A DNA stretch of 63,096 bases, counting the filler. It is 14 parts of 14 records of this genome, joined end to end, with 100 filler letters (N's around TTAATTAATTAA, not from the genome) between each part and the next. Parts side by side here need not be neighbours in the genome. Positions count along the whole stretch, not along the records: positions 43,177 to 55,414 come from SRR7504441_23009; 13 more parts are not named here. One strand, given 5' to 3'. The notes beneath the pieces are model-generated. The model searched no databases, was not told the origin of the DNA, and worked only from the letters and a program-made list of their open reading frames with translations. The number at the start of each line of letters is the position of its first letter. Within the stretch, counting starts at the first letter, position 1. This document shows positions 3,078 to 62,600 of the stretch, one piece after another. The position numbers were made by a program, and so were the translations under genes.

Positions 3078-3177
3078 NNNNNNNNNNNNNNNNNNNNNNN
3101 NNNNNNNNNNNNNNNNNNNNNTTAATTAATTAANNNNNNNNNNNNNNNNNNNNNNNNNNNNNNNNNNNNNNNNNNNN
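3078..3177. other. Artificial contig spacer (first of 13)
   Basis: N44-TTAATTAATTAA-N44 gives stops in all six frames. Identical spacers at 7390-7489, 12052-12151, 15921-16020, 20815-20914, 24433-24532, 28638-28737, 31951-32050, 35138-35237, 39177-39276, 43077-43176, 55415-55514 and 59546-59645. Confidence 0.98.
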
Positions 3178-7389: not shown

Positions 7390-7489
7390 NNNNNNNNNNN
7401 NNNNNNNNNNNNNNNNNNNNNNNNNNNNNNNNNTTAATTAATTAANNNNNNNNNNNNNNNNNNNNNNNNNNNNNNNNNNNNNNNNNNNN

Positions 7490-11978: not shown

Positions 11979-12736
11979 AGTTGTAATGACATTGTAGTAG
12001 TACAAGATTTCATGTATGTACACACATGATTGTATGATTGTACATACATGANNNNNNNNNNNNNNNNNNNNNNNNNNNNNNNNNNNNNNNNNNNNTTAAT
12101 TAATTAANNNNNNNNNNNNNNNNNNNNNNNNNNNNNNNNNNNNNNNNNNNNCATAGATATTCTATAATCATTCTAAATGACACTTGAGCTGTTCCCCAAT
12201 TGGGTTTGCATTTCCAGGAGAGCAAACAGTCGCCTTGGCAGCGTAGAGATGGTTCTTTTTATCTGAAAAGATGACTTCGCCCACCTGATCGGCAGCCGAG
12301 AGTGCTTTGATTGTGCACATAGCTATTTTAACCCTTGAGAATGGTACCCTCCCCGCTGCTGATCAAGAATTTCCCGAGCTAGTGCCGCCAGACACATGCT
12401 CTCCGTACTGCGCTTTACTCAGGAAGTGTTCTGCAGCACCAGAATCCTAAGTAGCACCATGACATGTACAGATTGTACACGCCCAGCCCGATATCGATTA
12501 GCGGCAGCACTCAATTTTCGCCGGACGGCGGAGCTCATCCATGGACAAATTATTTATTAAACTAACTTTAGTAAGTTTAGTTACAAGTAGTTTAACAAGG
12601 GGCGCGATGAGCGTCGGAGAAGCTGGTGATCGGGCTATGACCGGGCGCGGCAGTTGCCGCCCAGCGACTTAACAAGCACCTTCAGGAGAAGAGGCGCAAA
12701 CGCAAGGGAGCGGCCCGCCCTCGGCCTGACGCACTA

Positions 12737-16401: not shown

Positions 16402-16998
16402 TCAGGTATTGACCTCCTCCTTGCTCTCCCTGTCCTTTCGCGACTTGCAGCAGCCGCCGCCGCCGCCGCTCGACGTCTCTTTCTTGGCCGCGGCCGGCCG
16501 GATGTCTTGGCAATCGATCTTGTGCATCGGCCAGTGCTTCTGCTGGCACTGCCAGCCGCAGTAGAAAGCCTTCTTACAGGCCGAGCAACGCATCTCGGCG
16601 TCCATCCCGCACACCAGGCACACGCCCCCGGCCGCTGACGCCCGGCCCAGCGCCACCATCGAGCCCCGCAGGCCCGCCGCCGCCGACGACTCGGTGCCGC
16701 CGCCCCCCCCTCTAAACCACTTGCCGTCGGGCGGACTGGGCGGGGGCTCGGCCGCTTGCGCTGACGATTCAGCCACCGCCTGCCCCGCGGAGGCCGTCAC
16801 CCCGACCTGCTGTTGCTGGCTAAACCAGTTGGGCTGGAGGGTCCCGCTGGCCGTCCCGCCGGCGCCGGGTGCCGCATCGGCGGCGGGTGCCGCATCGGCG
16901 GCGCGAGAGTCGGTGAGCACAGGCTCCGGGTCCAGGCCGGGCTCGTGCAACGGCTGCGCCGGCGCCTCGCTCCGTTCGCAGCACGACGTCGCTCCCAT
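16402..16998 (-). CDS. MYND zinc-finger protein with putative acylated N-terminus
   Basis: CLVCGMDAEMRCSACKKAFYCGWQCQQKHWPMHKIDC is a MYND finger; N-terminus MGATSCC. Confidence 0.85.
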   Translation of the reverse strand: MGATSCCERSEAPAQPLHEPGLDPEPVLTDSRAADAAPAADAAPGAGGTASGTLQPNWFSQQQQVGVTASAGQAVAESSAQAAEPPPSPPDGKWFRGGGGGTESSAAAGLRGSMVALGRASAAGGVCLVCGMDAEMRCSACKKAFYCGWQCQQKHWPMHKIDCQDIRPAAAKKETSSGGGGGCCKSRKDRESKEEVNT

Positions 16999-17115
16999 AG
17001 ATCGCCCTCTGCGCCGGGTCGTGGCCCTCAAGTGGCCGGCGAGATGGCCGCCAACGGCGATAATAACGGACTCTTGACTCGAAGCCCGGACTCACCGACT
17101 GGCGAGTCGAGCACG

Positions 17116-31632: not shown

Positions 31633-32050
31633 GGCTCGGGCGGCGTACGACCGGGCACTGCGTACGTCTTGCACCGTCTCCTCCGCAGTGGGATGAATGC
31701 CTGCATCTCGCCGGTTCCGTTATTTTAGAGCGGGAAGCGGCGGCAGGTGCGACGGCGTCTGGATGGCAACATAGAGCCGACGGGCAGGTAAGGCAGGTCG
31801 ATCCGGCCGCCTCTGCATCGAGGTTGATGACGACGCCTCTTATCCGCGCGGTCGACCTGACCATGACAGACCGCGTCTGCGAGACAGTCACCCTCGTGCT
31901 TATGGCCCTTACCGTCTTTATGTACTGCGTGCCCCGCCGGAGATGCTGCGNNNNNNNNNNNNNNNNNNNNNNNNNNNNNNNNNNNNNNNNNNNNTTAATT
32001 AATTAANNNNNNNNNNNNNNNNNNNNNNNNNNNNNNNNNNNNNNNNNNNN

Positions 32051-43036: not shown

Positions 43037-43399
43037 CACGTTATCCATGACGAAAGATCCGTGACGAAAACTAAAANNNNNNNNNNNNNNNNNNNNNNNN
43101 NNNNNNNNNNNNNNNNNNNNTTAATTAATTAANNNNNNNNNNNNNNNNNNNNNNNNNNNNNNNNNNNNNNNNNNNNACTGTGATAACTCCCAAAATCCCC
43201 TTCTAATAATGTACTTATTAGTACTTATACTGCGTAACGATCGCGAGCCGACCTGTATACGTAACGTTAACCAAGTTGCCGTTATCGGGTTCCCATGTCC
43301 CACTGACAGTGGCGGGCTCGACCTATGGTGACTGGTAGCCTTGAGTAGGCTCACTCCGCCTGGGGTGGCAGGGGGAGCCAGACGCAGCGGCCTGGCGAA

Positions 43400-43807
43400 T
43401 TGGAGCACAGTGTCCATTTTGAAAACCGTGTAGATGCACTCCAGGCCCAGCTTGACGCCAAAACTGAAGCAATGAGCATAGCACACGAAGTGATCGAGAA
43501 ACTAGCCAGCAGGGTAGCTATCCTTGAGCTACTTAAGGATAAGGTGGTCGATCTTGAAGCTGAAGTTCAGACCAAGATCAATTCAATGCAAGAAATGGAA
43601 ATGAACGCCAAAGCACAACTCGACGAAAGAAGACAGGTAGAAATCAACTTGAGGGATCGAGTCGCTCAGCTAGAGGCAGAACTTGTGGCGAAGCAAAATG
43701 AAAGGAAGCATTTGGCAAAGTCAGTGAACGATTGGCTTGATCAACGAACACTGTTGCCTAGCCCGACGGCCCCCGAATCTCCCGCATATCCTTCTAAGAT
43801 CGTCTAA
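43400..43807 (+). CDS. Short coiled-coil protein or terminal exon
   Basis: Heptad-rich 135-aa ORF; start uncertain. Confidence 0.4.
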   Translation: MEHSVHFENRVDALQAQLDAKTEAMSIAHEVIEKLASRVAILELLKDKVVDLEAEVQTKINSMQEMEMNAKAQLDERRQVEINLRDRVAQLEAELVAKQNERKHLAKSVNDWLDQRTLLPSPTAPESPAYPSKIV

Positions 43808-44125
43808 ACCCAAGGGAACTGCACAAGATAGGACCTGAAGTCCGGAAACCCCCTAGAAAACCCTGCGCATTCCTCGTCACCGCCGTCACTCGACTTAAGT
43901 TTTGATTTTGTTTAATCGATCTAGCCTAGTGGTTAGAAGAAAATTTTAGGTTAGAATTGAACTCAAGTGGTATAGAATCTCGTAACCCTTTAGGAGGGCT
44001 TATTAGGGAGGGCTTCGCATTAGCTCCACATGAGAATTGACCATGATTAATATGTGGAGGTCGCGGTGTAGTCGCGGCGAGTCATACTTATAGTGGTACT
44101 GGGCCTAGTAGGACGTGTGGTCATT

Positions 44126-47100
44126 TTACAAGGAGATGCCAGATGGACCCCTTGTAATCTGAAAGTCTGTGTTGGCAATGGCATTGTTGACAGGGAGCTT
44201 TCGTTGTGACAGAACATCACTCATGACACTCAAGAGTCGCGTCACAGCAATGGACGGAGCTTCTCCTGCCCAAACCAGCACATCCGCACCTAAGCTATCA
44301 GCTGTTTTGAGATCAGCAGGCGCGTCAGCACACACAAACACAGTTGGAATGTGTGGATGCGCCTGTCGTCTCCGGCCGACCATCTCACTGTGGGTTGCCA
44401 CAACAATGATCATTTGCACACCAGAGCTGCCGAGCCCTGAGATTATCTCGACCCAATCGAGATTGACCGCAGGCATCTCCATCACGTGTAATCCAGGGGT
44501 CAGACCATACAAGTTGCCACCGAATTGCAGCGACGTCACAAACTCCTCCAGTGGCGGCGCGGTCGGGTTTTGGCCGTCATCATCATTCTGGCCTCCCACA
44601 ATCATCTGCATGAAACTGGTTGTCTTGAGTAGTGCTGAGCAGCTTGGCATCACGACAGAGCCGCCATTGCACACCACGCCGAGCGTGATCTCTGCGAGAG
44701 CGCTTGCTAGCTGTGAAGCGCTTTCGGATACCTGATGCACTGCGATTTGGAGCTGGCCCAGCGTGCCGGGCGAGCGAACCGGTGGCGGGTGCACTGCTAG
44801 TCGGCGGGTGGCCCAGTCTGTAATGCTCGTGCCCACCTGGTCGAGCCCGCCCCCGAGCTGGAGCGAGAACCAGCCAAACAAACTTGACAGGTCGACCGAG
44901 TCTGGGAGCCGCTCTGAGAGCACGCTGTAGAAGAAGTCGTTGTGGGTCTTCTCGCAGCCGTGCTCTAGCAGCAGCCCGAGCTGGACGGCCGGGTTGAGCA
45001 TATGCCCCACAAGCACCCGACTCGACAACGAGCACTCAGACGACCCGCAGCCTTCCGAATGCGGCAGCGCCACGCACCGTATGCCAGCTTTGCCGCCTTG
45101 CTCAAGAGCGCGGTTGACTTTTTGAGCAATCATTTGGGCAGGTTGTGAAGAGCACAGCGAAGTGGGGACTATCAGGATCAGCCGCTCGGCGCATAACTTG
45201 CCATTCAGGCCGGGGATGGCCGATTGGCTTTCCCAGGCTAGATACTCGAACGGCAACGATGCCGGCGCCGCTTGCTGGATTTGGACCGGCTCTGCTGTCC
45301 GCGGCTGCTCGCCCCAGCCACTGGCAGTTGCCTGGCCAGCCGGCTGGCCCCAGTTCCGCCAGATGATCAGTTGGGAGTGCCCAGCCGCCTCGCCACAGGT
45401 CTGCTCGCCACAGGCCACCCGGAGCATCAGCTCAAACGTGTCCTGTCCGAGCTGCTCCATCGTGCGCTGCCCGAGCAGGTACTGGCCGGCGTCCACATCC
45501 ATCTCGTTTGAGAGCATCTTGTACCTGCGCAAGATGAGCAGCTGTTAAGCGGGGGGCACCTGGTGGAGGTGGACACGATCTTGATTGTGGGCACAAACGG
45601 GAAGTTGGTCACGCTCCCGTTGCCGGTCGAGAAGAAGACCACGTTACACCCGCTCGCCACCTGGCCGGCGATGCTCTCCAGGTCGTTCCCCGGGCTGTCC
45701 ATGAACCCAAACTGCCCGCCAGCTCAGCCCCGCGCTGCAGCCGCTCGCCTTGTTCGGGCCAGCCTTGCGCTCGAGCTGCTCGCCATACTCTACACACGCG
45801 TCGAGCGGCACCTGCTCGTGTCGCTTCATGGCAGCTCCTAGCGACTTGATTGAGATGTTGTACAGCCCGCGAAACTTGTTCCCACCAGACGGATTGCCCT
45901 CCGGCGAGGCCCCGTGCCGGTGCGCCCAGCTCCGGAACCGGTCGATCAGCCCAACAAACTGTTGGGCTGTGTCGGCCGAGCTGCATTTGGCCAGGACGTG
46001 GCTCTCCGCGGTCATCAACTCGTCGGTCTCAGCCAGCAGCGCCGAGCTGCCACAGGGCTCAGTCGCACTGGCAGCTGAGGGCTCACCCGCCGTGCCGGAT
46101 CAGCAGCCTGGAGACCTCGCCGATCAGCGGGTTGGATGATATGCCGGAGAAGGCATCCGACCCGCCGCACTGCTGGGCGAGCGTGAGTCGGCCTGAGCCG
46201 ACCGGGGTGCGGCCCATGCTCCGGACGGCCGGGATCATCTGCCCGATCAGCTGCTCGCCGGCGGCCAGGTCGCGCTCCCAGTGGCCGGTCAGTCTGAGCT
46301 GTCGGTGCTCGAGATGCTCAGTAGGGTAACCGTGCTCGGCCATGTATTCACTGAGCAGCGCACCGCTCACCAGCCCGCCCGCGTCCACCAGCAGCGCGGC
46401 CGCCACGTTCGGGTGGACCACCAGCCCGGCCAGCGTCCTGAGCAGCAGCTGGGTGTGCGCCGGGTCCTCGGCCTCCAGCTTGCCGCCCTCAGTGTGCGCG
46501 CAGCCCACCACCCCATCACACTCCGGGCAGTCGTCCGTCAGCGCGCTCGCCCTGGATTCGAGAGCCCTCACAAAGCTCCCGGCCAGGCTGGTCAGCCCGA
46601 ACAGCACCACGTAGTTCCGGGTGCCCGCCCCTCGCCCGCCGGCCCGCTCGAACCCCTGCCACTCCCGCTGGCTGGCCGCCCGGGCCATTGGGGCCGCCGG
46701 CTCGAACTGGGCCGGGTCGAACTGATAGCTCTTGACGTGGTCCACGAAGTTGGCCGCCGGGGGCAACTCAAACTCGAGCCGGCGCAGCTTGAGCGCCTCC
46801 AGGATCGACTGGTTGCGAGCGTACTCGCCCGGCCCGATCGGATCGGTGGCGAACCCGAAGGTGAGCCCCCACGAGAGCAGCGGGGCCTGGGCCGGGATCG
46901 GGACCGCGGCCAGCCTGTGCCCCTCGAGCACGGTGTACGGCACCGAATGCACCTCGCCCGGCCCGATCGGGAACAGCACCTTGGTCCCGGCCTCGATCTG
47001 GCGGATGGCCACACCCACGTTGTCGCCCGGCGCCGGCAGGATGGCCACCTCGGCCAGCGGCACTGCCCCGGAGGCTTGGGCCACCGCCGGCGGGCTCGAG

Positions 47101-47147
47101 CTCTCATCGCCGTAGCCGATTTCCACCCGCGGCCGCTGGCTGCTCAT
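44126..47147 (-). CDS. UxaA/GarD-family (altronate/galactarate) dehydratase with SAF domain and tandem duplicated core; 3 introns
   Basis: SAF GDNVGVA...[56 protein letters not shown]. Second module PTSLC, PHSEGCG, HGCEK. Introns 46047-46086, 45712-45748 (GC-AG) and a 35-nt intron near 45525-45559. Confidence 0.9.
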
Positions 47148-47262
47148 CACCGCAGCGGCTCGACAACGGAAACTGAAACAACGGACGGATCCTCTCAATG
47201 AAAGGAGCAGACTGGCTGAGGCTCCGTTGGGATGAGCTAGAGGGAAGCGCACGAGGGCCGGG

Positions 47263-48768
47263 ATGAAGTTCGGCAAGTCGCTCCAGGCGGAGATGGTCCC
47301 GGAGTGGGCGGCCCACTACATTGACTACAAGGGGCTCAAGAAAGTGGTCAAGGAGCGCATGTTCGAAAGCCTGTGCCGGACCGACGACGTGACCGACCTG
47401 CTCGGAGTCAACATCGTCGGGTCGGACGTGGAGATATTCTTGAGGAAGCTGGAGCCGCAGGTCCAGAAGGTGCACAAGTTCTTCCAGTCGCAGCTCTCGA
47501 TCGAGCAGCGTAACGTGACCGACCTGGAGGCCGCGGTGGCCGCCATGAGCCTCCAGGCCCCGGGCGGACGGGTGGCGGACCCGCAGGGCAAGATCCAGGG
47601 GATGCTGAGCCAGGTGGGCCTGCTGATGCTGCACGTGGGCCACCTGGAGAAGTTTGCGCACCAGAACGAGGAGGGGCTGCGCAAGATCGTCAAAAAGTTC
47701 AACAAGATCCTGGGGACCGAGCTGCTGCACGACAACTTCAGCCGCAACTGCAGCTTTCACCGGAACGCCCGAACCATTCCATTGGTCACCATCAAGGCCG
47801 GTACCTGCTGCATCAACAACACACTGCAGCAGTTGCTGCCCACATTTGCAGTGCCGAGCCCCAGGTTGGAGCTGAGCCGGAGCCTGACTGAAGGCGAGAT
47901 CGACCTGCCCGCGTTGCAGAGCCACTTCCACCAGCCGCTCAAGGAAGCGGCCAAGGCGTTCGGTGTGTGTGTGACTGTGTTCAAAAGGATCTGCCGCTCG
48001 CAGGGGATAAAACGCTGGCCGGCTCGACGGGTCAAGATGGTCCAGGCAAAGAAAGCCAAACTGTGCAAGCGCATCGGGATAGAGCAGACCGCTTTCGACG
48101 CGATACAGCCGTCGGGGGAATCGGACCCGACTGGCGAGGCGATGCTGCACCAGCTGCAGCAGGCGTTTGAGGAGCAGATCCCGGCTGGCAAGAGGAGGAT
48201 CAAGATCTGGGACAAGCTCAACCAACGGAAGCTGACTGGGATGGCCGCCCCGCTCGAGGCCAACTTGGAGGAGTACCTGAAGAAGCATCCGGACCGAGAG
48301 CCGTATGCAGGGCAGGACGGGCAGCAGTCGCAGCGGTCTGACAGGTCGACGGATTGCGGTTCTGTGGGGCTTCAGGCGGATCATCTGCGAAGCATTGTGG
48401 GTGCCAACCAGAACTCGGCCAATCGTGAGACCAAGCACGAGATGCAGATCGCCGAGGCTGCAGTCGAGCTGGGCAAGAGCCTCGTTGAGACTAAGCTAGA
48501 GGCAAGAGTCTCGCTCACAGAGCCGCCAAACAGCTCAGACGTGCAGGCGCTGCTTGCCAGCTCGCCTGAAGCGAAGCCGGTCTCAGTGACCTCTTATTCT
48601 CCATCACTGTCCTCGCACAGTGCTGTGCTTGCCAAGTGTGCTCCCTCCCCCCACAATGCTAGTGCGGAGCACCCTGCAGAGAATATTTGTGTCGAAGGGC
48701 TACTGGATGCTGTGCCGAAGCCACATCCTGATACGCAACCTGACCTGCCACTGCTGATGGATCTGTGA
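47263..48768 (+). CDS. SPX + RWP-RK + BRK-like domain protein (putative phosphate-sensing transcription factor)
   Basis: MKFGKSLQAEMVPEWAAHYIDYKGLKK...EGLRKIVKKFNK (SPX); LQSHFHQPLKEAAKAFGVCVTVFKRICRSQGIKRWPARRV (RWP-RK); RIKIWDKLNQRKLTGMAAPLEANLEEYLKKHPDREPY (BRK-like); single exon. Confidence 0.88.
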   Translation: MKFGKSLQAEMVPEWAAHYIDYKGLKKVVKERMFESLCRTDDVTDLLGVNIVGSDVEIFLRKLEPQVQKVHKFFQSQLSIEQRNVTDLEAAVAAMSLQAPGGRVADPQGKIQGMLSQVGLLMLHVGHLEKFAHQNEEGLRKIVKKFNKILGTELLHDNFSRNCSFHRNARTIPLVTIKAGTCCINNTLQQLLPTFAVPSPRLELSRSLTEGEIDLPALQSHFHQPLKEAAKAFGVCVTVFKRICRSQGIKRWPARRVKMVQAKKAKLCKRIGIEQTAFDAIQPSGESDPTGEAMLHQLQQAFEEQIPAGKRRIKIWDKLNQRKLTGMAAPLEANLEEYLKKHPDREPYAGQDGQQSQRSDRSTDCGSVGLQADHLRSIVGANQNSANRETKHEMQIAEAAVELGKSLVETKLEARVSLTEPPNSSDVQALLASSPEAKPVSVTSYSPSLSSHSAVLAKCAPSPHNASAEHPAENICVEGLLDAVPKPHPDTQPDLPLLMDL

Positions 48769-49209
48769 GCTCACATGTACAACTGAATTATAACTTATAT
48801 AATGAGCAAGAGGACATAGGAGAATTGGCTGATCTTTTGTTGATCTACGAGCACTCATGTTATGCCCCGTTGACCTGCCGTTACTCATGTTACGGTTGGT
48901 TTCTAGTTGGTTTAGCTAACACATGAATATTATACTAAACATAAATGTTTTACGTTTGTCTAGTGGCAATATTTAAGCCGATTATGGTTATCATACGGTG
49001 TGTATGCGCTTTAATAACGCTTTGCAAGTATTTCTCTGTGAGTTTTCATAACCTTAAATCTAGCTAGAAACATGAATAAAAATTGCAGTTGCTCAATGCA
49101 CGTTTGCCTTGTACTACAGTGTAACTACAAGAGCGGCGAGCGCTTCGAGCTTGCCAGCAGCTGACAATTGTAAGAAGCTGCCAACTGTTAAATGCATCAG
49201 CCTACTTGC

Positions 49210-51205
49210 TCAGCATTTCCAAATGCGACAAGTGTTATCTTTTGACCCTACACAGAAAGTCATCAGTACCACCGCCAGTTGCACTATACAATCCGAGTGG
49301 CAGGCCACTTAGGCTGAATAGATATGAGCAGCACCTGTGATTACTGTGTCGCCCTCGTAGTTGAAAGCACAGGAGAAAATCTCATCTGTGTGACCCTCCA
49401 TCACTTGCAAGCATTCGCCACTTTCACAGTCCCATAATCGCGAAGTCTTATCCGAGCTTGCCGTCAAGATTTTAGTTCCTTGAGGATTGAAACACACCTG
49501 GACAGCACGAAGTGGATTACGACCTTCGTACTACTGCACCTTAGAAATCTCTCCCTCGTGACCGATCAGAATAGCCAAGCATGCCCCAGTCATCGTATTA
49601 TAGATCCGAGCAGAGCCTGAAACCTCTGCTCACCATCCGGTCCGGACGCACGGGTTCACCGTCTGCCGATGCAGTCACCAACTTGCTGCCTGATGTGTTG
49701 AAGCACACATCAAGGATCTCGTCCGTGTGGCCTCTGCACACCAAGCTTTAAGAGCTTGCCCCACATGCTGCTGCAAACCTCAATGTGTTGACACATTCCC
49801 CTGTGTTGCAGTTCCAGATCTTGGCTGTGCGGTCCTGCGCACCTCGTTACACGGCGCGCAACGGGGCCATGCTCACAATGCTGCCTGTCAACGCCAGATC
49901 CCCAGTGTAGTTGAATTGGACACTCGAAATTTCACCACCGTGGCCAGCCAGTGTGAACATGCACCTGCAGCAGCAGATCAATCGCAAAGACAAAACAACC
50001 CCAGCGGCGCAGTATAGTGGCTCGACTTACTGCCCGGTTCGGACGTCCCAAACTTTGGATGTATGATCGAATGAGCCAGTCATGATCTTTTCTCCAGTCG
50101 TGTCAAAGCACAGGCTCACAATCTCGGCAGAGTGGCCCTGTCGAAGCTGTGAGCAACTCGAGCTCTAACGGGATGTTCACCAGCAAGGTTGACAGCGATT
50201 CCCCAGTATCAACATCCCACAGCTTGGCTGTGCTGTCCATTGAACCCGTTGCAACAATGGTGCTCTGCACCCGTTCGTGAGCACAGCACACACGCAGTTG
50301 GATCGGACCTGCGGGTTGAACGACAGGCATACGATCTCAGTCTGATGACCTCGCAGCGTGGAAATTAGCTCCCCAGTGTGAGCATCCCACAACTGCCCAG
50401 CAGCATTCAGCCATTTGCGGCCCTGCAGCAGCACCTTGCATGTTTTGTCAAAGGAGCCGGTAATGATCTTATCCCTACCATTAGACGCTCAGCCCAGCAG
50501 CGCCTATCCCCCTGGTGGCACCCGTAGGGATTGTTGAATGCGATTGCGTAAACTACATTCTTGTGCCCCTCCAGCGTCAGCAGCTCTTCGCCAGTGTTAG
50601 TGTCCCAGACTTTGCACGTTCTGTCGTAGCTTCCGGTGATGAATCTGTCGTCCGATCAGTCGGTGCTCTGGACAGCAGCCCCGACCTGTCGCCGGACTTG
50701 TTGAACGCGCAGTTGGTGAGTGGCAGGATGTGCGCCCGCAAGATTTTAAACAGGTAAAAGTTCTGGCTCTCGTTCAACTCTTGCTTCTCGATCAGCTCTG
50801 GGATACCCCCAGTTTCAGCCGACGCGCCAGCCGGTGCGTCTACGCACTGAAAATCAGCTTGCGGAGCTGAGAGCGGCGGCTCTCTTTGATGAGCGGCTCG
50901 TGCTGGATGATCTGGTCCAGAATCAGCTCGACGTCGGTCCTGGGCCAGCTCGCTCGTACTGGTTCGGGCCAGCCGGCGGCGCACTCGGCGCTCAGATTGA
51001 GCAGGTCGATCGACTTGTTGCGCAGCTCGTTGGCTTGCTCGTACTCGAGGATGATCCCTGGCCCTAGGGTCAGCAACCACTGCGCGCCCCACTGTCGAGC
51101 CGCGCACCAGGGGGGTAGTATCTGCAACCAGCCAGTCACGAGTGAGTGGGCAGCCCCGCCGCGCAGGCCGGCCGCGCACCTCAGCAGGAACCGCTTTAGC
51201 TTCAT
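49210..51205 (-). CDS. DAW1: Dynein assembly factor with WD repeats (ODA16/WDR69), intron-rich
   Basis: [97 protein letters not shown]. Confidence 0.95.
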
Positions 51206-51372
51206 CCTGTCAGCGGGCCCCACCTGTCTCGAATTCGATCCAACTCGCTTTTCTACTTTGGGGGGCAGCTGAGCAAGTTGAGGACGCGCAGCTGAGCCTT
51301 GGGTGCCTCCCAGCGGCGCGAGCGCTGGGCGTGCGGCGTGCGATGTAGGGCAGTGACCGGCTCAGGTGCCGG

Positions 51373-53346
51373 ATGGTAGCACGGGAGCAGAACCCGTCGG
51401 CGTCTGGGGAGCTCCCACACGAAGCGGATGCTCCGGAGGTCGAGGCCACGCTGCTGCATCCAACGGCTGATATCAGCGCGGAGGGAGACCGGGTGCCATA
51501 CGCGGAGGAGGATCAAAGGTGGCAGCAGCCGAGCTGGCTGGGCACCCGCTCCTGGGCGAAAAATGCGACCTCAGCCGCCATGGTCATCAAGGCCCTCAAC
51601 CAGCGAGCCAAGGCAGTCCACGACCAGGGGTTGAGCCTCATGCGCGCAGCTGTGCAAGATTGGGTGGCAAACTCGGACGCAGCGGCACACACCCAGGGGG
51701 GTATTCGAGGTCTCGCCCTGCGCATCGTGGACTGGGAATACTTCGAGACTGTCATTCTGGTGTGCATTTGTATCAACTGCGTTCTTCTGGCACTGTACGA
51801 CCCCTTGAATCAGGATAGGTTCCAGGAGGTCACCAAGCACATTGAGACGGCCTTGCTCTGCATTTTTGCTCTGGAGATTGTGGTCAAGATGCTGGCCTAT
51901 GGTGTGTGCGGTGGCAGGAGAGCCTTTTTCCGCAGTGGCTGGAACTGGTTGGATCTCTTTGTGGTGTTAGTTGGAATCCCAGGCCATCTGTTTGACGATG
52001 CAAGTGACGCTGAGTCATTCACAGTCGTGAGATGCTTTCGAGTTCTCCGGCCTCTCCGAACGATTACACGAGTACCTGGTCTGGCGGTGCTTGTTGAAAC
52101 ACTACTTGAGTGCTTCAGCGGAATGCTGCCTGCACTTGTGATCTTCATGGGTTTCTTCCTCCTATTTGGCGTCACAGGTTGCCAGATGTTCATGGGACAG
52201 CTGAATCAGGATTGCTATGATGCCAGCACACACGAGCTAGATGTAGCCTGGGGTCGCAAATGTGGATACATTGATTGTCCTCAGGGCGACATTTGCGCAG
52301 TATCACAGACGTCACCAAACTTTAACACGACGAATTTCAACGATGTGTATCATGCCATCATCACTATCTTTGTCGCAATGACACTTGAAGGCTGGGTTGA
52401 TGTCATGTATGCACTGCAGGATTCGTATTCTCTTGTAGCAGCAACTATTTACTTCCTGCTTATAGTTTTGATTGGCTCATTCTGTGTGCTTCAACTGACG
52501 ATGGCCATCGTCTCGAACCAATATGAAGTCCATTCAAATGCAATGGAGGAAAAGAAGCGTCTCGAAGATGCTAAACTCGCCCAGACCACAGTTGACCAAG
52601 TCACTCCTAAAGAGAACGAGAAAGACTCTGCGACTGTCGTTGAGCCGAAGCAAGATATTACAGAGGAGAAGCAAACATCAATTGAGAGTGCTATCGAGCA
52701 AAAGCAAGATATCACAGAGGAGAAGCAAACATCAACCGAGCTCTCAGATGTTTCAGATGGCTGTACAGCAGTGTAATCCGCCAAATACGTGGGCCAACGC
52801 CAATATGCATTTTGATGACATTGGGAATGCCTTACTAACGCTGTTCCAAGTTGCGTCGCTTGAGCTATGGCCAAACGTGATGTACAGGTCTCTCACTGCC
52901 AGCCTGACTGCCTAGTGTGTTCTAGTGTCATGTATTCTGGTCCAACCTGAACCTATCCTGATTGGCAATTGAGTACTGTGGTGTACAGTACTATGGATGC
53001 ACCGTCTGAGATCGGGCAAGCCCCAGAGGAGAATGCCTCCTGGTGGGCGGCATTCTACTTTGTTTTTTATGTGTGTATTGGATCATTTCTTATTCTCAAC
53101 CTCTTCATTAGTGCCGTGGTCGACACATTTGAAACAGAGCGAGACAAGGCCACGGGTATGGTGCTTTTGACAGACTCGCCAATATCAGCTTCACTTTATT
53201 CCGATGGAAAATTCCATTTCATGGAGGTCTTCATGGCGCTAGCTAAGTTCGAGTACGGTCCAGAAGAGATCTTGAAGCTGACAGGTATGTTAATTGGTTT
53301 GAGCTCTGGGTGCTTCCATTACACCGAGAAGCCTGCAATCGGATGA
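51373..53346 (+). CDS. Voltage-gated Ca2+/Na+ channel-like gene, internally deleted (repeat I complete, then pore/S6 fragment, then C-terminal fragment); possible pseudogene or misassembly
   Basis: FETVILVCICINCVLLA, RSGWNWLD, S4 VRCFRVLRPLRTITR, pore TLEGWVDVMY; after TAA 52776, FDDIGNALLTLFQVASLELWPNVMY and IGSFLILNLFISAVVDTF, then DGKFHFMEVFMALAK. Confidence 0.75.
52641..52740 (+). repeat. 54-nt tandem duplication in the channel linker
   Basis: EPKQDITEEKQTSIESAI / EQKQDITEEKQTSTE; CAAGATAT recurs at 52651 and 52705. Confidence 0.85.
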
Positions 53347-53617
53347 AATAGCTTTCAGGTCGGTTTGAGATGATTTAGAGATGATTGTACATACATTGAA
53401 GTAGGCTGGAACATAAGTAGGTTGGTTTGGTAGATTGAAGTAGGCTGGAATATAAGCACAAATTTATGAGTTTAATTGTAAACCTGAAGTCAAGTAATTA
53501 AATACAGTTTTCTGATACAAGTCAAGGGCTCATTGACAACTACTTGTTCCCAAATCATGAGAGCTAATCATGAGAGCTACGGCCATGAGCACATGGATTG
53601 TGTCACACGATCTGACA

Positions 53618-55163
53618 TCATACGGCGGGGTTCCTGTACAGATAAGGAAGATCCTTCCCATCAGTGATCTCTCCTTGCCGGTGCAATCTATTCTCCTCGT
53701 TGTGCACTGCAACTTTCACTGCAGGCATCCCGTGTCGGCCAAACTCTGCAAGCAGCCAGCAATTAGCACCGTGCTGTCCAACCACCACACCAAGACTTAC
53801 TTTCATGGTCGTTTGGGTCGAACTTCTTGGATTTCTTTTCAACGATTTCAGCCAGCGACTTGGTCGAGTGTTTCTGTCTCAGGTTCTGTCAACCCAAAAC
53901 AGTTACTAGAAAGGCGCCCTCAGGCTGCTGGTTCACCGGGTTCATCTCTAACAGCTCTTCCGCCACTGCCCGTGACAACCGCGACACTCTGCTCTTCTTA
54001 GATTCAGCACTGCACACCTGCAGAGCAGTCTCACACGCTGCAAGTAAGACTGGCAGACCGAGCCATCCCACTCCTTGTCCCCCGCCGCCTCTGCGGCCTC
54101 TTTCTCGCGCAACGCCGCGCTCATCGCCGTGTGCACCGACCCGGCGGTCATCGCAGTCTGCTCGCTCATTATTGTTGGCTGCTCCTCGTCCGGCTCTGCC
54201 TCGTCCTCGCTCTCCAACTCTGAGATGCGAGCTTTGGCTGCAGCAAGTGCCTCACGAAACTCACAGTCGTCCATATACTCGTCGATATCCAGCTCCTCCG
54301 CGAACTGCAGCAAGTCCTCCACCTCTGCCTCCTCGGTCACCTCATTCTCAGCCTCTGTCCGTGCCCAGGCTGGCTTGTCGACAGCTGGCTTGGACTCCTG
54401 CTCCGGCTCCGGCTCCGGCACCTTGGCTTTCTGGTCAGGAAGTTTGCTGTGCAGCTCTTCGACGATGTCCTTGTTCAGCTTAGTTTTGAGCTCGCCAAGC
54501 ATCTGCTCCTTGGACAGGATCGCACCCGCTGCAGCTGGACCTTGCACATCGTCGATGTTGGCCATGTTTCGCTTGATCTGTCTGATTTGGTCGCGCACCT
54601 TCTGCGAGTCTTCCGCCAGCTGACCAGAACGATCGGCCACCCGGCCGGCCGGGGCCCGGTACCTGCTTGCGTTGCTCCTCCTCCTTCAGGCGCTGTGCCT
54701 CCTCCTCGATCAGCAGCTCCTTCTTAAGCTGCTGCAACGAGCGTAGCCAGCGCCTGTGATTAGTCATCGCCGGATTCTTGGGTTTCGCTGCACCACCAGC
54801 TCAGTCCGGACCCCAAGCGCTGGGCTTGCCTGGCCGGTCGCCATCGGAGACGGGGCGCGGCTTCCGGATAGGATTTAGCCCGAGCTGCTGCGGGGCGTTC
54901 ACCGCGGTCAGGAAGGGCTCTGGGTGCCCGCTGTCCCATGCGCTGGCCAGGGTGCTGGCCGGCCGGGCGCACCCGTAGTCCGGGGCGTGAGTGACCACTT
55001 GGATCCCAGGGCGGTCGCAGAGCATCACGCCCTTGTAGTTGGATGAATAGTTGTTGTCGGACGGACCAGGAGCCGGGGCCGTGGCAGCGCCGCTGTGATG
55101 ATCCGACAGGGAGGCCCCCGCCTCGGGGGCCATCCTCATCGACATCATCACCTCCTTCGACAT
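53618..55163 (-). CDS. Hypothetical coiled-coil protein, multi-exon
   Basis: NYKGVMLCDRP, NHRRWLRSLQ, KPAWARTE, DLLQFAEELDIDEYMDDCEFREAL, C-terminus LPYLYRNPAV*; the ORFs are linked by short GT-AG introns. Confidence 0.65.
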
Positions 55164-55514
55164 CCCGGGTCTCTCCCTTTGCCGCCCAGTGCCAGTGCCG
55201 GTGTCTGGGGCTATTTGTGGAATAAATATTATTCGGAGCGATCTGAAAATCCAAATGCCCAGACGGACCTCGCGACGGCTGTCGGGTCAGGAGCCGGAGG
55301 CGCTGCCGGAGGCCAGCTACCTGGCCGGGAGCCGGTGCCAGCCTGCTGCCCGTTGCCGACTCAGCCCTGGCCAGGGCGCTCCGGCTGCTGCAGGCCGAGC
55401 CCAACCAGCCCCCCNNNNNNNNNNNNNNNNNNNNNNNNNNNNNNNNNNNNNNNNNNNNTTAATTAATTAANNNNNNNNNNNNNNNNNNNNNNNNNNNNNN
55501 NNNNNNNNNNNNNN

Positions 55515-59645: not shown

Positions 59646-62600
59646 GGAATCCCCATGATGATGCACTCACTCACCCCTGACACATTGAGCTCAAAGCAGC
59701 ACACACCAACCCTGACCTGATATTTTATCCACCCTCGAGCGTACAGCGGCCTCAAACAAGTGATCCGCTGTCTTCTCAAACGATGCCAACATCAGCACTG
59801 AATCGCGCATCTTTTCTATTCCGAAACGGGTGATACCGAGCACCTGCATCCGGCCTATCACCGACTGCCCTCCGGGGGGCGATGCCTCGCCACGGTAGGT
59901 CATTGTATCAGCGAGCAGCCAGATATGCCTGATATCAATCCCGATAGAGTAAGACTTGAAAATCTTGTTGATCTCCGTGACAATTTGGCTCCGGGCCTGC
60001 AAGCGCAATGAGCTCCAGCTGCAGCAGCGTCGGCACCGCTTCTATTCCGAGGCAGTTCTGGATCTCTATGATATGATTCGAGTACGTCGTGGTTCCCTCC
60101 ACTCCAGGGATGCCGTACACACTATCCATCCCGTATCCTTCCACATACACCTAGCCGGCCTGCTCACAGCCAGCAGCCAGGAGGGCTGCCTTGTAGGTCT
60201 TGTCCTCCTCGTTGTTGGAGATGACCGCCCGCTCAATCCCAGGGATCCCAGCCACCTAGCCCACAGCAGTAAGCCCACGGATCCTCGAGATCCATGTCGA
60301 CGCAGGTTTAGTCACCTGAACGTCCGGAACAAACTTTTGCACAAACTGCAACTTGCCCAGCATCGCCTCTCGCTTGTAGTCGCTACAGATCACGTGTATC
60401 TTGTCGTTGCTGCGCACCTTGACGTCCTTGAGAGTGAGTTTGCGTTTCGACTGTGCTACAATCGCGTGCTGGACCCCGACAATTGTGACCTCAAGCTGGA
60501 GCTTTGAGATGGTCAACAGGTCTAGTTTGATGCTGATAAAGCTGCCCGACACCTCGTGTACCTCCTTGATGTAGAGTGATACTTCCTTGAGTCTGGTGCA
60601 TTCAATTCGGCCTTTCACGATGCGAGCGGCCTGCAGGTCTAGAGGCTCACACAGCGAGACATCCACAATCGGTGTGGAGACAGTCTTTGCTGCGTTGATG
60701 ATCTCCTTGATCCGAGGCACCCCCATCGTCACATTCATGCTTGCCACGCCGGCAAAGTGGAACGTCTTGAGCGTCATTTGTGTGCCAGGTTCGCCAATGC
60801 TCTGGGCAGCAAGCGCACCACAGGCGGTGCCAGGCTCGATGAGTGCCAGAGAGAATCTTTGTTCGCAAGCCTTGAGGTAGCTGCCAACTTGACTCTTCGT
60901 GATCCTGTGCCGCTCCAATGCCCGGGCCTGCAGAATCTTTTGAGTCTTTTTGCTTTCACTCTTCTTGGCCAAAGCATCGAGCGCAGTCATCTCATCCTCC
61001 AGCCTTTTAGCGAACTTCCCGAGCTCCAACAGCGCCCGCTCGAGCCACTTAGGCTCCGAGCCGTGCTTAGTCACATGCTTGGTCCGCTGTTTGGTCACCA
61101 TCTTGCGCAGCTCTGACGGCTCGAGAGGCTTCTCCTGCTCGGCCCCTCGCATCGGCTGCACATGCACCGTGTGCTCCAGCTGGCGCTCAAAGTTGAGTCC
61201 GCCATTCTGCTCGTCCAAGTCCGTCGGGTCGAGGCCGTCCTCCCCGTACACAAACTGCACGATGTCTCCCGCCGAGGTGCGACAGGTGGTGTCCCATTGG
61301 ATCGACAAGTCTTCCATCGCCTTCATCAGACGGCGCTGCATGTACCCGGTCTCTGCGGTCTTCACGGCTGTATCCACCAGACCCTCGCGTCCACATATGG
61401 TGTGGAAGAAGAACTCGGTCGGAATCAGCCCGGAATAAAACGAGTTCTGGACAAACCCCTTGGCGGCAGGGTCGCGTGCAAACATTGGGAAATGCGGCAG
61501 CGTGCGGTTGACAAAACCGTGCGGAATCCGTGAGCCCGAGACAACCTGCTGCCCGACACATGCCACCATCTGGGCAATATTGATGTCTGATCCCTTGGAC
61601 CCAGCCCTTTCCATGATCCGCGGCGCGTTGTTCCGGGCCAATTCCTTGACGCATAATCCGCCTGCTTCATTCCGGATCGCAGAGAGGACGCCCTGCCACA
61701 CCACAGGGTGAATAACGCAGCACAGGCCTGAGATTTACCTGGATCTCAGTCTCCAGCGACTTATCTAGGTTCATACCAGGCAAGCACTCCAGCTGGCCGT
61801 CTTGGTACTGCTTGATTAGGTTATCCACTTTGGCAAAGCCTGCGTTGATCATCTCTTGTTTCTTGGTCACAAGGTTCTCGGAGGCCGTCACATCGTTGAT
61901 TCCTATCGAGAAGCCTTGCTGGCCCATGAAGCGTGCTGCCAGCTTAGCAACTCGCCCCATGCACTCGCCAGCAACGTGTGGCCCATACTGTCGCAGCAGC
62001 AGATAGAAGAGCGAGTCCTTACCGCCACCAAGCGTTTTCTTATCGAGCACCCCACAGAGCAGTTCAGAATTCTCGATACAGACGTACCCATCATTCGGCT
62101 CAAGCCACTTATCGCCCTTCCACTTCTTATCCCAAGACTTGCACTTGAGCTGAAAGCTCACAAAGATCGGCGATTCCTTGCTCGGCCGGATCAGGACCGA
62201 GAAGACCTGTTTTCCTGTCCAGAGCTCGACTGGCTTAATGATAGCCGGTGGAGGCAGATCGATCAGCTCGTTGGCGTCTGTTAAGAAACATATCAGCTGG
62301 CAGAACATGGATCGGTCGTAGAATCTGTCCTTGGAGGTGAGCAGGTATGCCGCGGTGAGGAAGTCTTGTGTGGCAGCGATGACCAGCTCGCCGTTACGAG
62401 GCGTCACCAGGTTTTGCAGAGTGCCCATCAGCTCAATCGCCTCGGTCCGAGCTTCCTCTGTCTGAGGGACATGAAGGTTCATCTCGTCACCGTCAAAGTC
62501 AGCATTGTATGGCGCGCACACGCACTCGTTGAACCGGAGTGTGCGCCATGGCATCACCTGCCGATCATCAGTATCGTCTTTCAGAGCAGCGCCACCTTAG

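What the first reader, a model, noticed from the sequence alone, without database searches (positions are those of the whole stretch)
47263..48768. SPX-RWP-RK-BRK fusion: candidate one-component phosphate-sensing transcription factor
Seen: one uninterrupted ORF carries an N-terminal SPX domain with both basic ligand patches intact (YIDYKGLKK and RKIVKKFNK), an RWP-RK DNA-binding domain (~47899-48035, variant RWPARR) and a BRK-like motif (~48196-48306). Established: SPX domains bind inositol pyrophosphates and in plants control separate PHR transcription factors in trans. RWP-RK proteins (NLP/NIN, RKD, MID, NIT2) regulate nitrate responses and gamete identity. BRK occurs in CHD7-9/Brahma remodelers. 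Inference: a direct fusion would couple cellular phosphate status to an RWP-RK regulon, possibly linking P sensing to N or sexual-cycle control. I do not know this architecture from characterized proteins.
Basis: partly seen in the sequence, partly recalled or inferred. Interest (0 to 1): 0.85.

Follow-up and report, generated by a model that had tools for sequence, protein, structure and literature searches.

The report
SPX-sensor fused to RWP-RK regulator
A single gene of an uncultured marine flagellate related to Telonema joins a phosphate-status sensor domain (SPX) directly to a DNA-binding gene regulator (RWP-RK) and a small docking domain (BRK), a layout that is real, conserved in its relatives and apparently undescribed, and that could sense phosphate and switch genes with one protein.

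Summary
Window 47263-48768 (+) is one uninterrupted 501-aa ORF. Pfam finds SPX, RWP-RK and BRK, all above the gathering scores. A fold search supports the SPX fold, and a second one the BRK fold. The six SPX ligand-contact positions known from plant SPX1 (Tyr/Lys cluster, lysine cluster) have the same spacing here and are invariant in 7 of 7 family members.

Five clusters of orthologues carry the same architecture. One is from the Telonema subtile transcriptome, so this is not a chimeric join.

A profile search of 1.84 billion representatives listed 150 best hits. Four were full SPX-RWP-RK-BRK clusters and two were fragments. Fifteen had RWP-RK-BRK without SPX. The fused forms sit on one side of a branch with 100/100 support.

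Best reading (0.55): an inositol-pyrophosphate-regulated transcription factor in one polypeptide. This is inferred and untested.

Two precedents temper the novelty. Rice SPX4 controls the RWP-RK factor NLP3 in trans. EIN3-SPX fusions are reported in Selaginella.

Verdict: new variant of a known kind; interest 0.6.

The parts
47263..48768 (+). Whole single-exon coding sequence, 501 aa plus stop (P0001)
   Evidence: The N-terminus MKF(G) aligns with the first residue of all orthologues. It is the only SPX, RWP-RK or BRK match in the six-frame translation of the window.
47263..47835 (+). SPX domain, aa 1-191 (helical bundle)
   Evidence: Pfam PF03105, 61.8 bits. PDB sequence match to the SPX chain 5ijp_A, E 3.4e-10 over aa 1-154. 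Foldseek: 5ijj_A target TM 0.80, rmsd 3.4 over 196 columns; 30 matches at E<=0.001, and all those listed are SPX-bearing chains. Model helices run to aa 191.
47317..47343 (+). YIDYKGLKK, aa 19-27. Y22 and K26 sit at the positions of AtSPX1 Y25 and K29 (phosphate binding cluster).
   Evidence: Sequence. Residue roles from passages of bioRxiv 10.1101/2019.12.13.875393. Y19, Y22, K23, K26 and K27 are invariant in 7 of 7 sequences. They align to HYIDYDGLK of 5ijp_A.
47680..47706 (+). RKIVKKFNK, aa 140-148. K141, K145 and K148 have the spacing of the AtSPX1 lysine surface cluster K136/K140/K143; K144 has that of K139.
   Evidence: R140, K141, K144, K145 and K148 are invariant in 7 of 7. They align to YKIIKKHDK of 5ijp_A.
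47836..47898 (+). Variable linker between SPX and RWP-RK, aa 192-212
   Evidence: pLDDT under 50 for aa 197-211. Length and sequence vary among orthologues. An RNA-library contig of run X4 (47825-47975) covers the linker; a second (47689-47836) ends at its first base. No joint is seen.
47899..48036 (+). RWP-RK DNA-binding domain, aa 213-258 (motif RWPARR, aa 251-256)
   Evidence: Pfam PF02042, 72 bits. pLDDT 93-96 in the module model. Weak fold matches to small helix-turn-helix DNA-binding domains: GcrA Z 4.3, NtrC1 Z 4.3, Fis Z 4.0.
48022..48078 (+). Basic helix after RWP-RK, aa 254-272 (ARRVKMVQAKKAKLCKRIG). It holds residues invariant only in the SPX-fused clade.
   Evidence: Helix 254-271 in the model. 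M259, A262, K263, A265, C268, I271 and G272 are invariant in 6 of 6 fused sequences but not in the 13 SPX-less relatives.
48124..48138 (+). DPTGE motif, aa 288-292, specific to the fused clade
   Evidence: D288, T290, G291 and E292 are invariant in 6 of 6 fused sequences and different in the SPX-less relatives; P289 is invariant in the fused clade but also present in 8 of 13 relatives.
48190..48318 (+). BRK domain, aa 310-352 (beta-beta-alpha-beta)
   Evidence: Pfam PF07533, 24.7 bits against cut-off 23. Module model pLDDT 86-98 across this block, strands 111-113, 118-120 and 141-143, helix 128-137. Foldseek top 5 are CHD7/CHD8 BRK domains; 2cka has rmsd 1.0 over 39 columns at 33% identity. 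VIA-align: 2cka Z 5.7, BRG1 BRK 6sy2 Z 5.5.
48319..48765 (+). Poorly conserved, probably disordered C-terminal tail, aa 353-501
   Evidence: pLDDT under 50 for aa 350-373 and 381-495. pN 0.60 against L001. The alignment is mostly gaps apart from a short acidic end motif.
47148..47262 (.). 115-bp divergent intergenic region shared with the altronate/galactarate-dehydratase-like gene on the minus strand
   Evidence: ATG of the minus-strand ORF at 47147 and ATG of the SPX gene at 47263. Pfam of the neighbour.

Best explanation
The gene encodes a nuclear transcription factor of a telonemid-like marine flagellate. An N-terminal SPX domain, the eukaryotic receptor for inositol polyphosphates and pyrophosphates that report cellular phosphate, is covalently joined to an RWP-RK helix-turn-helix DNA-binding domain. 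A BRK domain, a predicted peptide-docking module, follows. Proposed working: the basic SPX patch (Y22, K26, K144; K141, K145, K148) binds InsP6/InsP7/InsP8 when phosphate is plentiful. The ligand-bound SPX then acts in cis on the RWP-RK domain and the basic helix behind it. By analogy with SPX1-PHR this would block DNA binding or oligomerisation. When phosphate falls the factor is released and acts on its target genes, with BRK recruiting a co-regulator. Shown here: the domains, their order, the conservation of the ligand residues, purifying selection, and the single origin of the fusion. Inferred: ligand binding, the direction of the switch, cis action, the regulon and the role of BRK.
For: All three domains score above the Pfam cut-offs. 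The SPX fold is supported against solved InsP6- and InsP8-bound SPX structures: 5ijj_A target TM 0.80, 5ijp 0.76, 8tyv 0.69. The six residues whose mutation abolishes the PP-InsP-dependent SPX1-PHR1 interaction in Arabidopsis (Y25, K29, K139; K136, K140, K143; passages) have identical spacing here. They are invariant in 7 of 7 family members although overall identity is only 42-49%. They also align with the same residues of 5ijp_A. Five homologue clusters share the same order of domains. One is from the Telonema subtile transcriptome, with a 450-aa isoform. All 5 orthologues scanned have SPX and RWP-RK above cut-off. Against the orthologue on L001, synonymous sites are saturated (pS 0.88) while pN is 0.37 in SPX, 0.20 in RWP-RK and 0.18 in BRK, so all three parts are under constraint. 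The fused forms are one side of a branch with 100/100 support in a tree of the RWP-RK-BRK module (6 fused, 14 SPX-less). They also carry clade-specific invariant residues in the basic helix and the inter-domain segment, as expected if a new contact evolved. Precedent that SPX controls transcription factors, including an RWP-RK factor: rice SPX4-NLP3 (passages of PMC9161090) and SPX1-PHR1. Contigs of poly-A or oligo-dT RNA libraries match 799 of the 1506 ORF bases at 99-100% with no joint inside the ORF. One contig covers the SPX-to-RWP-RK linker and a second ends at its first base.
Against: Nothing functional was tested. The whole-protein model has pTM 0.39 and low confidence in the linker, so it gives no confident packing of SPX against the rest. 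The RNA evidence is thin: short contigs at depth 2-4, and the tool warns that DNA can be present in RNA libraries. Telonemids are, as I recall, phagotrophs that obtain phosphorus from prey, so what a phosphate-starvation regulon would contain is unclear. Whether this organism has the kinases that make InsP7/InsP8 was not tested, because no genome is held. The direction of the switch is copied from plants. SPX-less relatives with the same RWP-RK-BRK module exist, so the module works without SPX and SPX could be an accessory.
Confidence: 0.55

Rival explanations
1. The SPX domain does sense inositol pyrophosphates, but the output is not direct cis control of DNA binding. Instead SPX is a handle for a partner in trans: a ubiquitin ligase or a retention factor that sets the stability or nuclear entry of the factor, as for rice SPX4, which is degraded through NBIP1 or SDEL1/2.
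For: In plants, SPX4 turnover by E3 ligases is the regulated step for both PHR2 and NLP3 (passages of PMC9161090). The model shows no confident SPX-to-module packing (pTM 0.39). BRK is a predicted peptide-recognition module, so the protein has docking surfaces (passages of PMC7096718).
Against: No partner is known. The clade-specific invariant residues in the helix behind RWP-RK fit an internal contact at least as well.
Confidence: 0.2
2. The SPX domain is a ligand-independent helical scaffold or oligomerisation domain that was recruited to dimerise an RWP-RK factor. The protein has nothing to do with phosphate.
For: RWP-RK factors need partner or oligomerisation domains, such as PB1 in the plant NLP-like hits P0007 and P0008. 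The SPX-less relatives lack any such domain. Solved XPR1 entries include dimerised SPX domains (titles of 9jxf and 9jxg).
Against: All six ligand-contact positions are invariant in 7 of 7 sequences while 45% of columns vary. A mere scaffold would not need to keep a surface basic patch.
Confidence: 0.15
3. The RWP-RK-BRK module is not a sequence-specific transcription factor here but a chromatin-associated or RNA-associated adaptor, with SPX tuning that role.
For: BRK is otherwise known from chromatin remodellers and a splicing regulator, and its function is unknown (passages of PMC7096718). Other profile hits combine BRK with a histone deacetylase domain (P0052) or with zf-CW (P0020).
Against: The RWP-RK domain scores 72 bits and is the best conserved part together with BRK. 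Characterised RWP-RK proteins are DNA-binding regulators (established knowledge, recalled).
Confidence: 0.05
4. Artefact: two neighbouring genes, or a chimeric assembly, read as one ORF.
For: The window is a chain of joined contig pieces, and the source looks like a metagenome-derived assembly.
Against: The gene lies more than 4 kb from the nearest spacer. The same order of domains occurs in 5 independent homologue clusters, including a cultured-organism transcriptome, and on contig L001 with a quite different GC content, 47% against 61%. An RNA-library contig covers the linker without a joint. Conserved residues continue through aa 164-188.
Confidence: 0.02

Closest known systems
Rice SPX4 - NLP3 (with NRT1.1B and NBIP1)
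   Same: An SPX-domain protein controls an RWP-RK transcription factor, linking phosphate and nitrogen signalling (passages of PMC9161090 citing Hu et al. 2019).
   Different: In rice these are two separate proteins acting in trans. NLP3 has GAF-like and PB1 domains that are absent here, and there is no BRK. Here the two functions are one polypeptide, in a non-plant lineage.
Plant stand-alone SPX1/SPX2 with PHR1/PHR2 (Myb coiled-coil factors)
   Same: The same SPX fold and the same six ligand-contact positions (7e40 is among the fold matches). It is the model for how PP-InsP-bound SPX silences a transcription factor.
   Different: The target there is a Myb-CC factor bound in trans. No Myb or coiled-coil PHR domain is present here.
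EIN3-SPX, EIN3-S6PP_C-SPX and SPX-RING-BET proteins of Selaginella, liverwort and algae (PMC8717665)
   Same: SPX fused in one protein to a transcription-related domain. Those authors voice the same idea, that SPX could put the partner domain under phosphate control (passages).
   Different: The partner domains differ and SPX is C-terminal in the EIN3 forms. They were only listed from domain scans. No RWP-RK or BRK partner is listed in the passages I saw; the supplementary tables were not opened.
SPX-less RWP-RK-BRK proteins of environmental eukaryotes (P0016, P0019, P0021, P0026, P0028-P0030, P0032, P0033, P0035, P0037, P0043, P0058, P0063, P0111)
   Same: The same RWP-RK then BRK module with shared invariant residues: RWP.R, W316, K323, G326, AAP 328-330, Y348, Q351.
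   Different: They start 1-37 residues before the RWP-RK domain and have no SPX. They lack the fused clade's invariant basic helix and DPTGE motif. All 10 looked up are unnamed.
BRK domains of CHD7/CHD8/CHD9 and BRG1/BRM chromatin remodellers
   Same: The same beta-beta-alpha-beta fold: rmsd 1.0-2.5 over 39-46 columns at 28-33% identity; VIA-align Z 5.0-5.7.
   Different: Those proteins are SNF2 ATPases of animals. Here BRK sits behind a DNA-binding domain in a 501-aa protein of a protist. The function of BRK is unknown even in animals.
Yeast Pho81 (SPX plus ankyrin CDK inhibitor) in the PHO pathway
   Same: An SPX protein at the head of a phosphate-responsive transcription programme (recalled, not checked here).
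   Different: Pho81 acts through a kinase on Pho4. There is no DNA-binding domain in the SPX protein.

Membership tests
SPX domain (Pfam PF03105) | Profile match above the curated cut-off, at the N-terminus starting MKF | tested here: met
   61.8 bits against 27.8, starting at residue 1. 5 of 5 orthologues also pass.
SPX domain (Pfam PF03105) | Helical-bundle SPX fold | tested here: met
   Foldseek: 30 matches at E<=0.001, and all listed ones are SPX-bearing chains. 5ijj_A target TM 0.80, rmsd 3.4 over 196 columns. The model is of moderate quality: pLDDT 70-88 in the helices.
SPX domain (Pfam PF03105) | Phosphate binding cluster (Tyr, Lys, Lys) and lysine surface cluster (three Lys) on the basic patch | tested here: met
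   Y22, K26, K144 and K141, K145, K148 have the spacing of AtSPX1 Y25, K29, K139 and K136, K140, K143. They are invariant in 7 of 7 and aligned with 5ijp_A. The mapping rests on spacing and on the 5ijp alignment, not on a direct alignment to AtSPX1.
SPX domain (Pfam PF03105) | Binds InsP6 / PP-InsP | not testable with these tools
   Needs ITC or MST with the recombinant domain.
RWP-RK domain (Pfam PF02042) | Profile match above the cut-off, with the RWPxRK motif | tested here: met
   72.0 bits against 29.3, profile positions 2-47 of 49. The motif is RWPARR here (K to R) and RWPARK in 5 of 5 orthologues.
RWP-RK domain (Pfam PF02042) | Sequence-specific DNA binding | not testable with these tools
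   Only weak fold likeness to small helix-turn-helix DNA-binding domains, Z 4.0-4.5.
NIN-like proteins (NLP) | N-terminal GAF-like nitrate-responsive region and C-terminal PB1 domain beside RWP-RK | tested here: not met
   No PF22922 or PF00564 match even at E<=10. The plant hits P0007 and P0008 carry both, but match the query over only 15% of its length at 49% identity.
RKD / MID-type minimal RWP-RK factors | Short proteins with RWP-RK as the only known domain; role in gamete or mating-type identity | tested here: inconclusive
   The protein has two further domains. Atlas neighbours include an RKD5 cluster at 0.86, below the tool's 0.9 lead level. No phylogeny against RKD or MID was made.
BRK domain (Pfam PF07533) | Profile match above the cut-off | tested here: met
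   24.7 bits against 23.0, which is marginal. Orthologues: 2 of 5 above (25.6, 25.2) and 3 of 5 below (21.5, 21.1, 18.5). The family profile also pulls in 106 tandem-BRK proteins among the 150 best hits.
BRK domain (Pfam PF07533) | beta-beta-alpha-beta fold as in the CHD7/CHD8/BRG1 BRK structures | tested here: met
   Model strands 111-113, 118-120, 141-143 and helix 128-137. The fold is described in PMC7096718. The Foldseek top 5 are all BRK domains with probability 1.00, though E is only 0.05-0.17 because the domain is short. VIA-align Z 5.0-5.7.
SPX-RWP-RK-BRK architecture (the family proposed here) | All three domains in this order in one protein, in several organisms | tested here: met
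   10 of the 158 proteins held have it by local HMMs: the query, 5 cluster representatives and 4 close members. Among the 150 best profile hits, 4 are full forms and 2 are fragments.

The most novel reading that the evidence does not exclude
This is a true one-component eukaryotic phosphate switch. A single polypeptide receives the InsP8 signal on its SPX patch and turns its own DNA-binding domain on or off. That would be the shortest phosphate-to-transcription path known in eukaryotes. As a natural 'Rosetta stone' fusion, it would also suggest that the SPX / RWP-RK partnership seen in trans in rice (SPX4-NLP3) is an old or repeatedly found solution for tying phosphate status to a nutrient or life-cycle programme.
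Probability: 0.4. Interest if true: 0.75.

Novelty: new variant of a known kind. Interest (0 to 1): 0.6.

Why it matters
SPX domains are the general eukaryotic receptors for inositol pyrophosphates. How ligand binding is passed on to a transcription factor has so far been studied only in two-protein plant systems. A natural fusion would give a compact, soluble, single-protein system for measuring ligand binding and DNA binding together. It would also be a ready-made design for phosphate-controlled synthetic regulators. It lies in Telonemia, which an abstract calls a poorly known major phylum, sister to stramenopiles, alveolates and rhizarians (PMC8924772, listing), and for which almost no gene regulation is known. 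It also reveals an undescribed RWP-RK-BRK regulator family and shows that BRK domains are common outside animals in environmental eukaryote data. The limits are that the organism is uncultured, that only Telonema subtile offers a culture-derived transcriptome with the gene, and that every functional step is still inference.

Tried and rejected
1. Complex prediction of SPX (aa 1-195) against the RWP-RK-BRK module (aa 205-356). The verdict was 'no answer', score 0.00; the alignments were not used and no controls were folded. It says nothing either way.

2. The whole genome is not held. PP-InsP kinases, other SPX genes and SPX-less paralogues in the same organism could therefore not be sought.

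3. Taxon from the same-contig ion-channel gene. Only unnamed environmental homologues at 56-58% identity were found, so it gave no answer.

4. ESM Atlas on aa 205-356. It returned only generic RWP-RK clusters, mostly Streptophyta, best score 0.91. It was of no use for the BRK combination.

5. Scan of metagenome contigs. It gave one orthologous contig (L001) and one unrelated AT-rich protein (L002) whose only tested match is a 23%-identity SPX stretch. By eye the long hydrophobic remainder of L002 looks like an SPX-EXS transporter; Pfam was not run on it. No larger genomic context was found for any orthologue.

6. Sequencing runs. All 20 holders have shares of 0.18 or less. No habitat or abundance claim is made. 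Parts of the ORF without cover (47263-47688 in the RNA runs) mean nothing.

7. Names for the SPX-less relatives. 0 of 10 looked up carry a name.

8. Earlier notes of this scan held nothing on this gene. The RWP-RK notes returned concern other genomes and did not change my reading.

9. NLP membership was rejected because there is no GAF-like or PB1 domain.

10. Limit of the architecture search. Only the 150 best of 6072 profile hits are visible, with the lowest at 85.5 bits. A very distant SPX + RWP-RK protein scoring below that would have been missed. InterPro architecture tables could not be queried.
Full report
WHAT IS THERE

Window 47263-48768 (+) is a single open reading frame of 501 codons with no interruption. 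Pfam-A finds three families, all above their curated cut-offs:
- RWP-RK: 72.0 bits against 29.3, aa 213-258.
- SPX: 61.8 bits against 27.8, from residue 1.
- BRK: 24.7 bits against 23.0, aa 310-344.

The two long antisense ORFs over the gene have no Pfam match. The sense frame has the GC3 (0.80) typical of the other genes in the window. No second SPX, RWP-RK or BRK match exists in the six-frame translation of the window.

The window itself is a chain of 14 contig pieces joined by N44-TTAATTAATTAA-N44 spacers. The gene sits inside a 12.2-kb piece (43177-55414), more than 4 kb from either spacer.

On that piece it is divergently paired with an altronate/galactarate-dehydratase-like gene; the start codons are 115 bp apart. 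Downstream lie a multi-exon WD40 gene and an ion-channel gene. The organism therefore has introns, but this gene is a single exon.

IS THE FUSION REAL?

A word-indexed search of 5.8 billion proteins gave 7 hits at E<=0.001. Five have the same architecture, at 47-56% identity over 60-81% of the query. Two are plant NLP-like proteins that match only the RWP-RK domain, covering 15% of the query.

One of the five, together with a 450-aa isoform in its cluster, carries the EukProt accession of Telonema subtile. The others are unnamed environmental sequences. All 5 orthologues scanned have SPX and RWP-RK above cut-off; BRK is above cut-off in 2 and just below in 3.

All start with the SPX N-terminus at residue 1, and conservation runs from residue 1 to about 352. 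One orthologue lies on a 1611-nt contig (L001). It has 123 nt before the ORF and 69 nt after it, and a GC content of 47% against 61% for the window gene.

Between the two genes, synonymous sites are saturated (pS 0.88). The proportion of non-synonymous differences is 0.37 in SPX, 0.20 in RWP-RK, 0.18 in BRK, 0.49 in the linker and 0.60 in the tail. All three domains are therefore held by selection.

Contigs of three poly-A or oligo-dT RNA libraries match at 99-100% over 47689-47975, 48049-48406 and 48615-48856. That is 799 of the 1506 ORF bases. They cover the SPX-to-RWP-RK linker and the stop codon, with no joint inside the ORF. This cover is thin, and the tool warns that it does not prove transcription. 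A chimeric join or a merged gene model is nonetheless very unlikely.

THE DOMAINS

SPX. The sequence matches solved SPX domains; 5ijp_A gives E 3.4e-10 over aa 1-154. The AlphaFold model has mean pLDDT 60 overall and 70-88 in the SPX helices. It gives 30 Foldseek matches at E<=0.001, and all listed ones are SPX-bearing chains. They include InsP6- and InsP8-bound forms: 5ijj_A target TM 0.80, 5ijp 0.76, 8tyv 0.69.

The residues that form the ligand patch in Arabidopsis SPX1 are Y25, K29, K139 (phosphate binding cluster) and K136, K140, K143 (lysine surface cluster). Their mutation abolishes the PP-InsP-dependent interaction with PHR1 (passages of bioRxiv 10.1101/2019.12.13.875393). The same spacings occur here as Y22, K26, K144 and K141, K145, K148. 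All are invariant in 7 of 7 family members, whose identity to the query is only 42-49%. They also align with the same residues of 5ijp_A.

RWP-RK and BRK. A second model of aa 205-356, built from 19 sequences, is confident: mean pLDDT 88. Its five best Foldseek matches in the PDB are all BRK domains of CHD7 or CHD8, with rmsd 1.0-2.5 over 39-46 columns and 28-33% identity. The E-values are only 0.05-0.17 because the domain is short. VIA-align gives Z 5.0-5.7 for BRK domains of CHD7, CHD8 and BRG1.

The beta-beta-alpha-beta order agrees with the published BRK fold. Its authors call the function unknown and propose peptide recognition (passages of PMC7096718). The RWP-RK part resembles small helix-turn-helix DNA-binding domains only weakly, Z 4.0-4.5. 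The last 150 residues are predicted disordered and are poorly conserved.

HOW WIDE IS THE ARCHITECTURE?

A family profile was run with HMMER over 1.84 billion representative proteins. It found 6072 hits at E<=0.001, of which the best 150 are listed. I classified these with local HMMs of the three parts and cross-checked 48 of the 146 new ones with Pfam. The 150 split as follows:
- 4 full SPX-RWP-RK-BRK clusters;
- 2 SPX-only fragments of the same family, one ending in adapter-derived residues;
- 15 RWP-RK-BRK proteins without SPX;
- 106 proteins with two to six BRK domains;
- 23 proteins with two to five RWP-RK domains.

The SPX-less RWP-RK-BRK proteins begin 1-37 residues before the RWP-RK domain, so SPX is truly absent in those with an intact N-terminus. 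All 10 that I looked up are unnamed.

In a maximum-likelihood tree of the module, with 6 fused and 14 SPX-less sequences, the fused forms are one side of a branch with 100/100 support. I left out the short P0058, the truncated P0006 and three near-copies of P0005. The tree is unrooted, so it shows one gain or one loss but not which.

The fused clade has its own invariant residues in the basic helix behind RWP-RK (M259, A262, K263, A265, C268, I271, G272) and in a DPTGE motif.

One limit applies. A very distant SPX + RWP-RK protein scoring under about 85 bits would not be among the 150 rows shown.

WHOSE GENE IS IT?

No genome is held. Two lines point to a telonemid. The only named orthologue of the gene is from Telonema subtile. 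An RNA polymerase III largest-subunit fragment on another piece of the window has T. subtile as best hit at 68% identity, followed by two unnamed sequences at 65% and then nothing above 55% among hits that cover most of the query (a few 60-62% matches cover only 38-41% of it).

I therefore take the source to be an uncultured marine relative of Telonema. This is an inference, and it assumes the joined pieces come from one organism. Telonemia is described as a poorly known phylum sister to SAR, with seven described species (abstracts in the listing).

HOW IT PROBABLY WORKS

I commit, at 0.55, to a one-polypeptide phosphate-responsive transcription factor. The SPX patch binds InsP6 or PP-InsPs when phosphate is plentiful. 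The bound SPX acts in cis on the RWP-RK domain and its basic helix, and the factor is released when phosphate falls. BRK docks a co-regulator.

Shown here are the domains, the intact and invariant ligand patch, selection on all parts, a single origin, and clade-specific residues between the domains. Inferred are ligand binding, cis action, the sign of the switch (copied from SPX1-PHR1), the regulon and the BRK partner.

The main rivals are:
- SPX as a ligand-dependent handle for a trans partner such as an E3 ligase, as for rice SPX4 (0.2);
- SPX as a ligand-independent scaffold (0.15), which the invariant basic patch argues against;
- a role other than a transcription factor (0.05);
- an artefact (0.02).

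COMPARISON WITH WHAT IS KNOWN

The closest functional parallel is rice SPX4, which restrains the RWP-RK factor NLP3 until SPX4 is degraded (passages of PMC9161090). The present gene does in one chain what rice does with two. It is not an NLP, because it has no GAF-like or PB1 domain.

SPX fused to a transcription-related domain has been listed before, in Selaginella and algae: EIN3-SPX and SPX-RING-BET. Those authors voiced the same idea of phosphate control (passages of PMC8717665). The principle is therefore not new.

Surveys of algal and dinoflagellate SPX proteins list no RWP-RK partner in the passages I read. I did not open their supplementary tables.

Full-text searches gave these results:
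- 'SPX' with 'RWP-RK': 29 papers, 27 distinct titles listed, all on plants or Chlamydomonas, none on a fusion judging by title and abstract start.
- 'RWP-RK' with 'BRK domain': 0.
- 'Telonema' with 'SPX': 0.
- 'SPX domain' with 'domain architecture' and 'protist': 0.

VERDICT

This is a new variant of a known kind: an SPX sensor with a new output module, restricted as far as seen to a small telonemid clade. I score interest at 0.6. It remains well above ordinary because it offers a compact natural system for a central open question, namely how SPX passes the inositol-pyrophosphate signal to transcription.

Noticed in passing
window 3078-3177, 7390-7489, 12052-12151 and 10 further places: The window is not one piece of genome. 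It is 14 contig pieces joined by N44-TTAATTAATTAA-N44 spacers (13 spacers), so gene order across spacers means nothing.
   Followed up: yes
window 44129-47147 (-): An altronate/galactarate-dehydratase-like gene (GD_AH_second and GD_AH_C) lies in three ORF pieces in different frames, with a second partial GD_AH_second after the first copy. The cause is short introns, frameshifts or a tandem fusion. This family is mostly bacterial (recalled). The gene is divergent to the SPX gene, with start codons 115 bp apart.
   Followed up: partly
window 49309-50655 (-): A WD40-repeat gene is split into at least five short exons, so the organism has introns while the SPX gene has none. RNA-library contigs of other organisms hit its conserved repeats (places 49207-49386).
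   Followed up: no
proteins P0016, P0019, P0021, P0026, P0028-P0030, P0032, P0033, P0035, P0037, P0043, P0058, P0063, P0111: A family of 243-445-aa proteins has RWP-RK followed by BRK and no SPX. All those looked up are from unnamed environmental data. A search for 'RWP-RK' with 'BRK domain' found 0 papers.
   Followed up: partly
proteins among P0014-P0158: BRK domains, described as typical of proteins of higher eukaryotes, are abundant in environmental proteins. 106 of the 150 best hits carry two to six BRK domains. Among them are a 2504-aa protein with a histone deacetylase domain (P0052) and one with a zf-CW finger (P0020).
   Followed up: no
proteins P0006, P0013, P0037: Some public ORFs have ends that look like translated sequencing adapters (recalled pattern): P0006 ends LSLIHISEPTRPY, P0013 ends NLSLIHI, and P0037 starts with ...SEMCIRDR. 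The 317-aa Telonema isoform is therefore an artefactually cut copy of the 450-aa one.
   Followed up: partly
window 60259-62596 (-): An RNA polymerase III largest-subunit gene lies in at least two ORF pieces. The best named relative is Telonema subtile at 68% identity; apart from two unnamed sequences at 65%, other hits covering most of the query are at 55% or less.
   Followed up: partly
window 51373-52773 (+): A single-repeat voltage-gated-type ion channel (Ion_trans) has only three close relatives, at 56-58% identity and all unnamed. Its more distant matches are to bacterial-type one-domain sodium channels.
   Followed up: no
window 16765-19971 (+) and 29017-31719 (-): Large alpha-L-rhamnosidase (GH78-like) and alpha-galactosidase genes sit on other pieces of the window. 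This would fit a predator that digests algal or bacterial prey (speculation).
   Followed up: no
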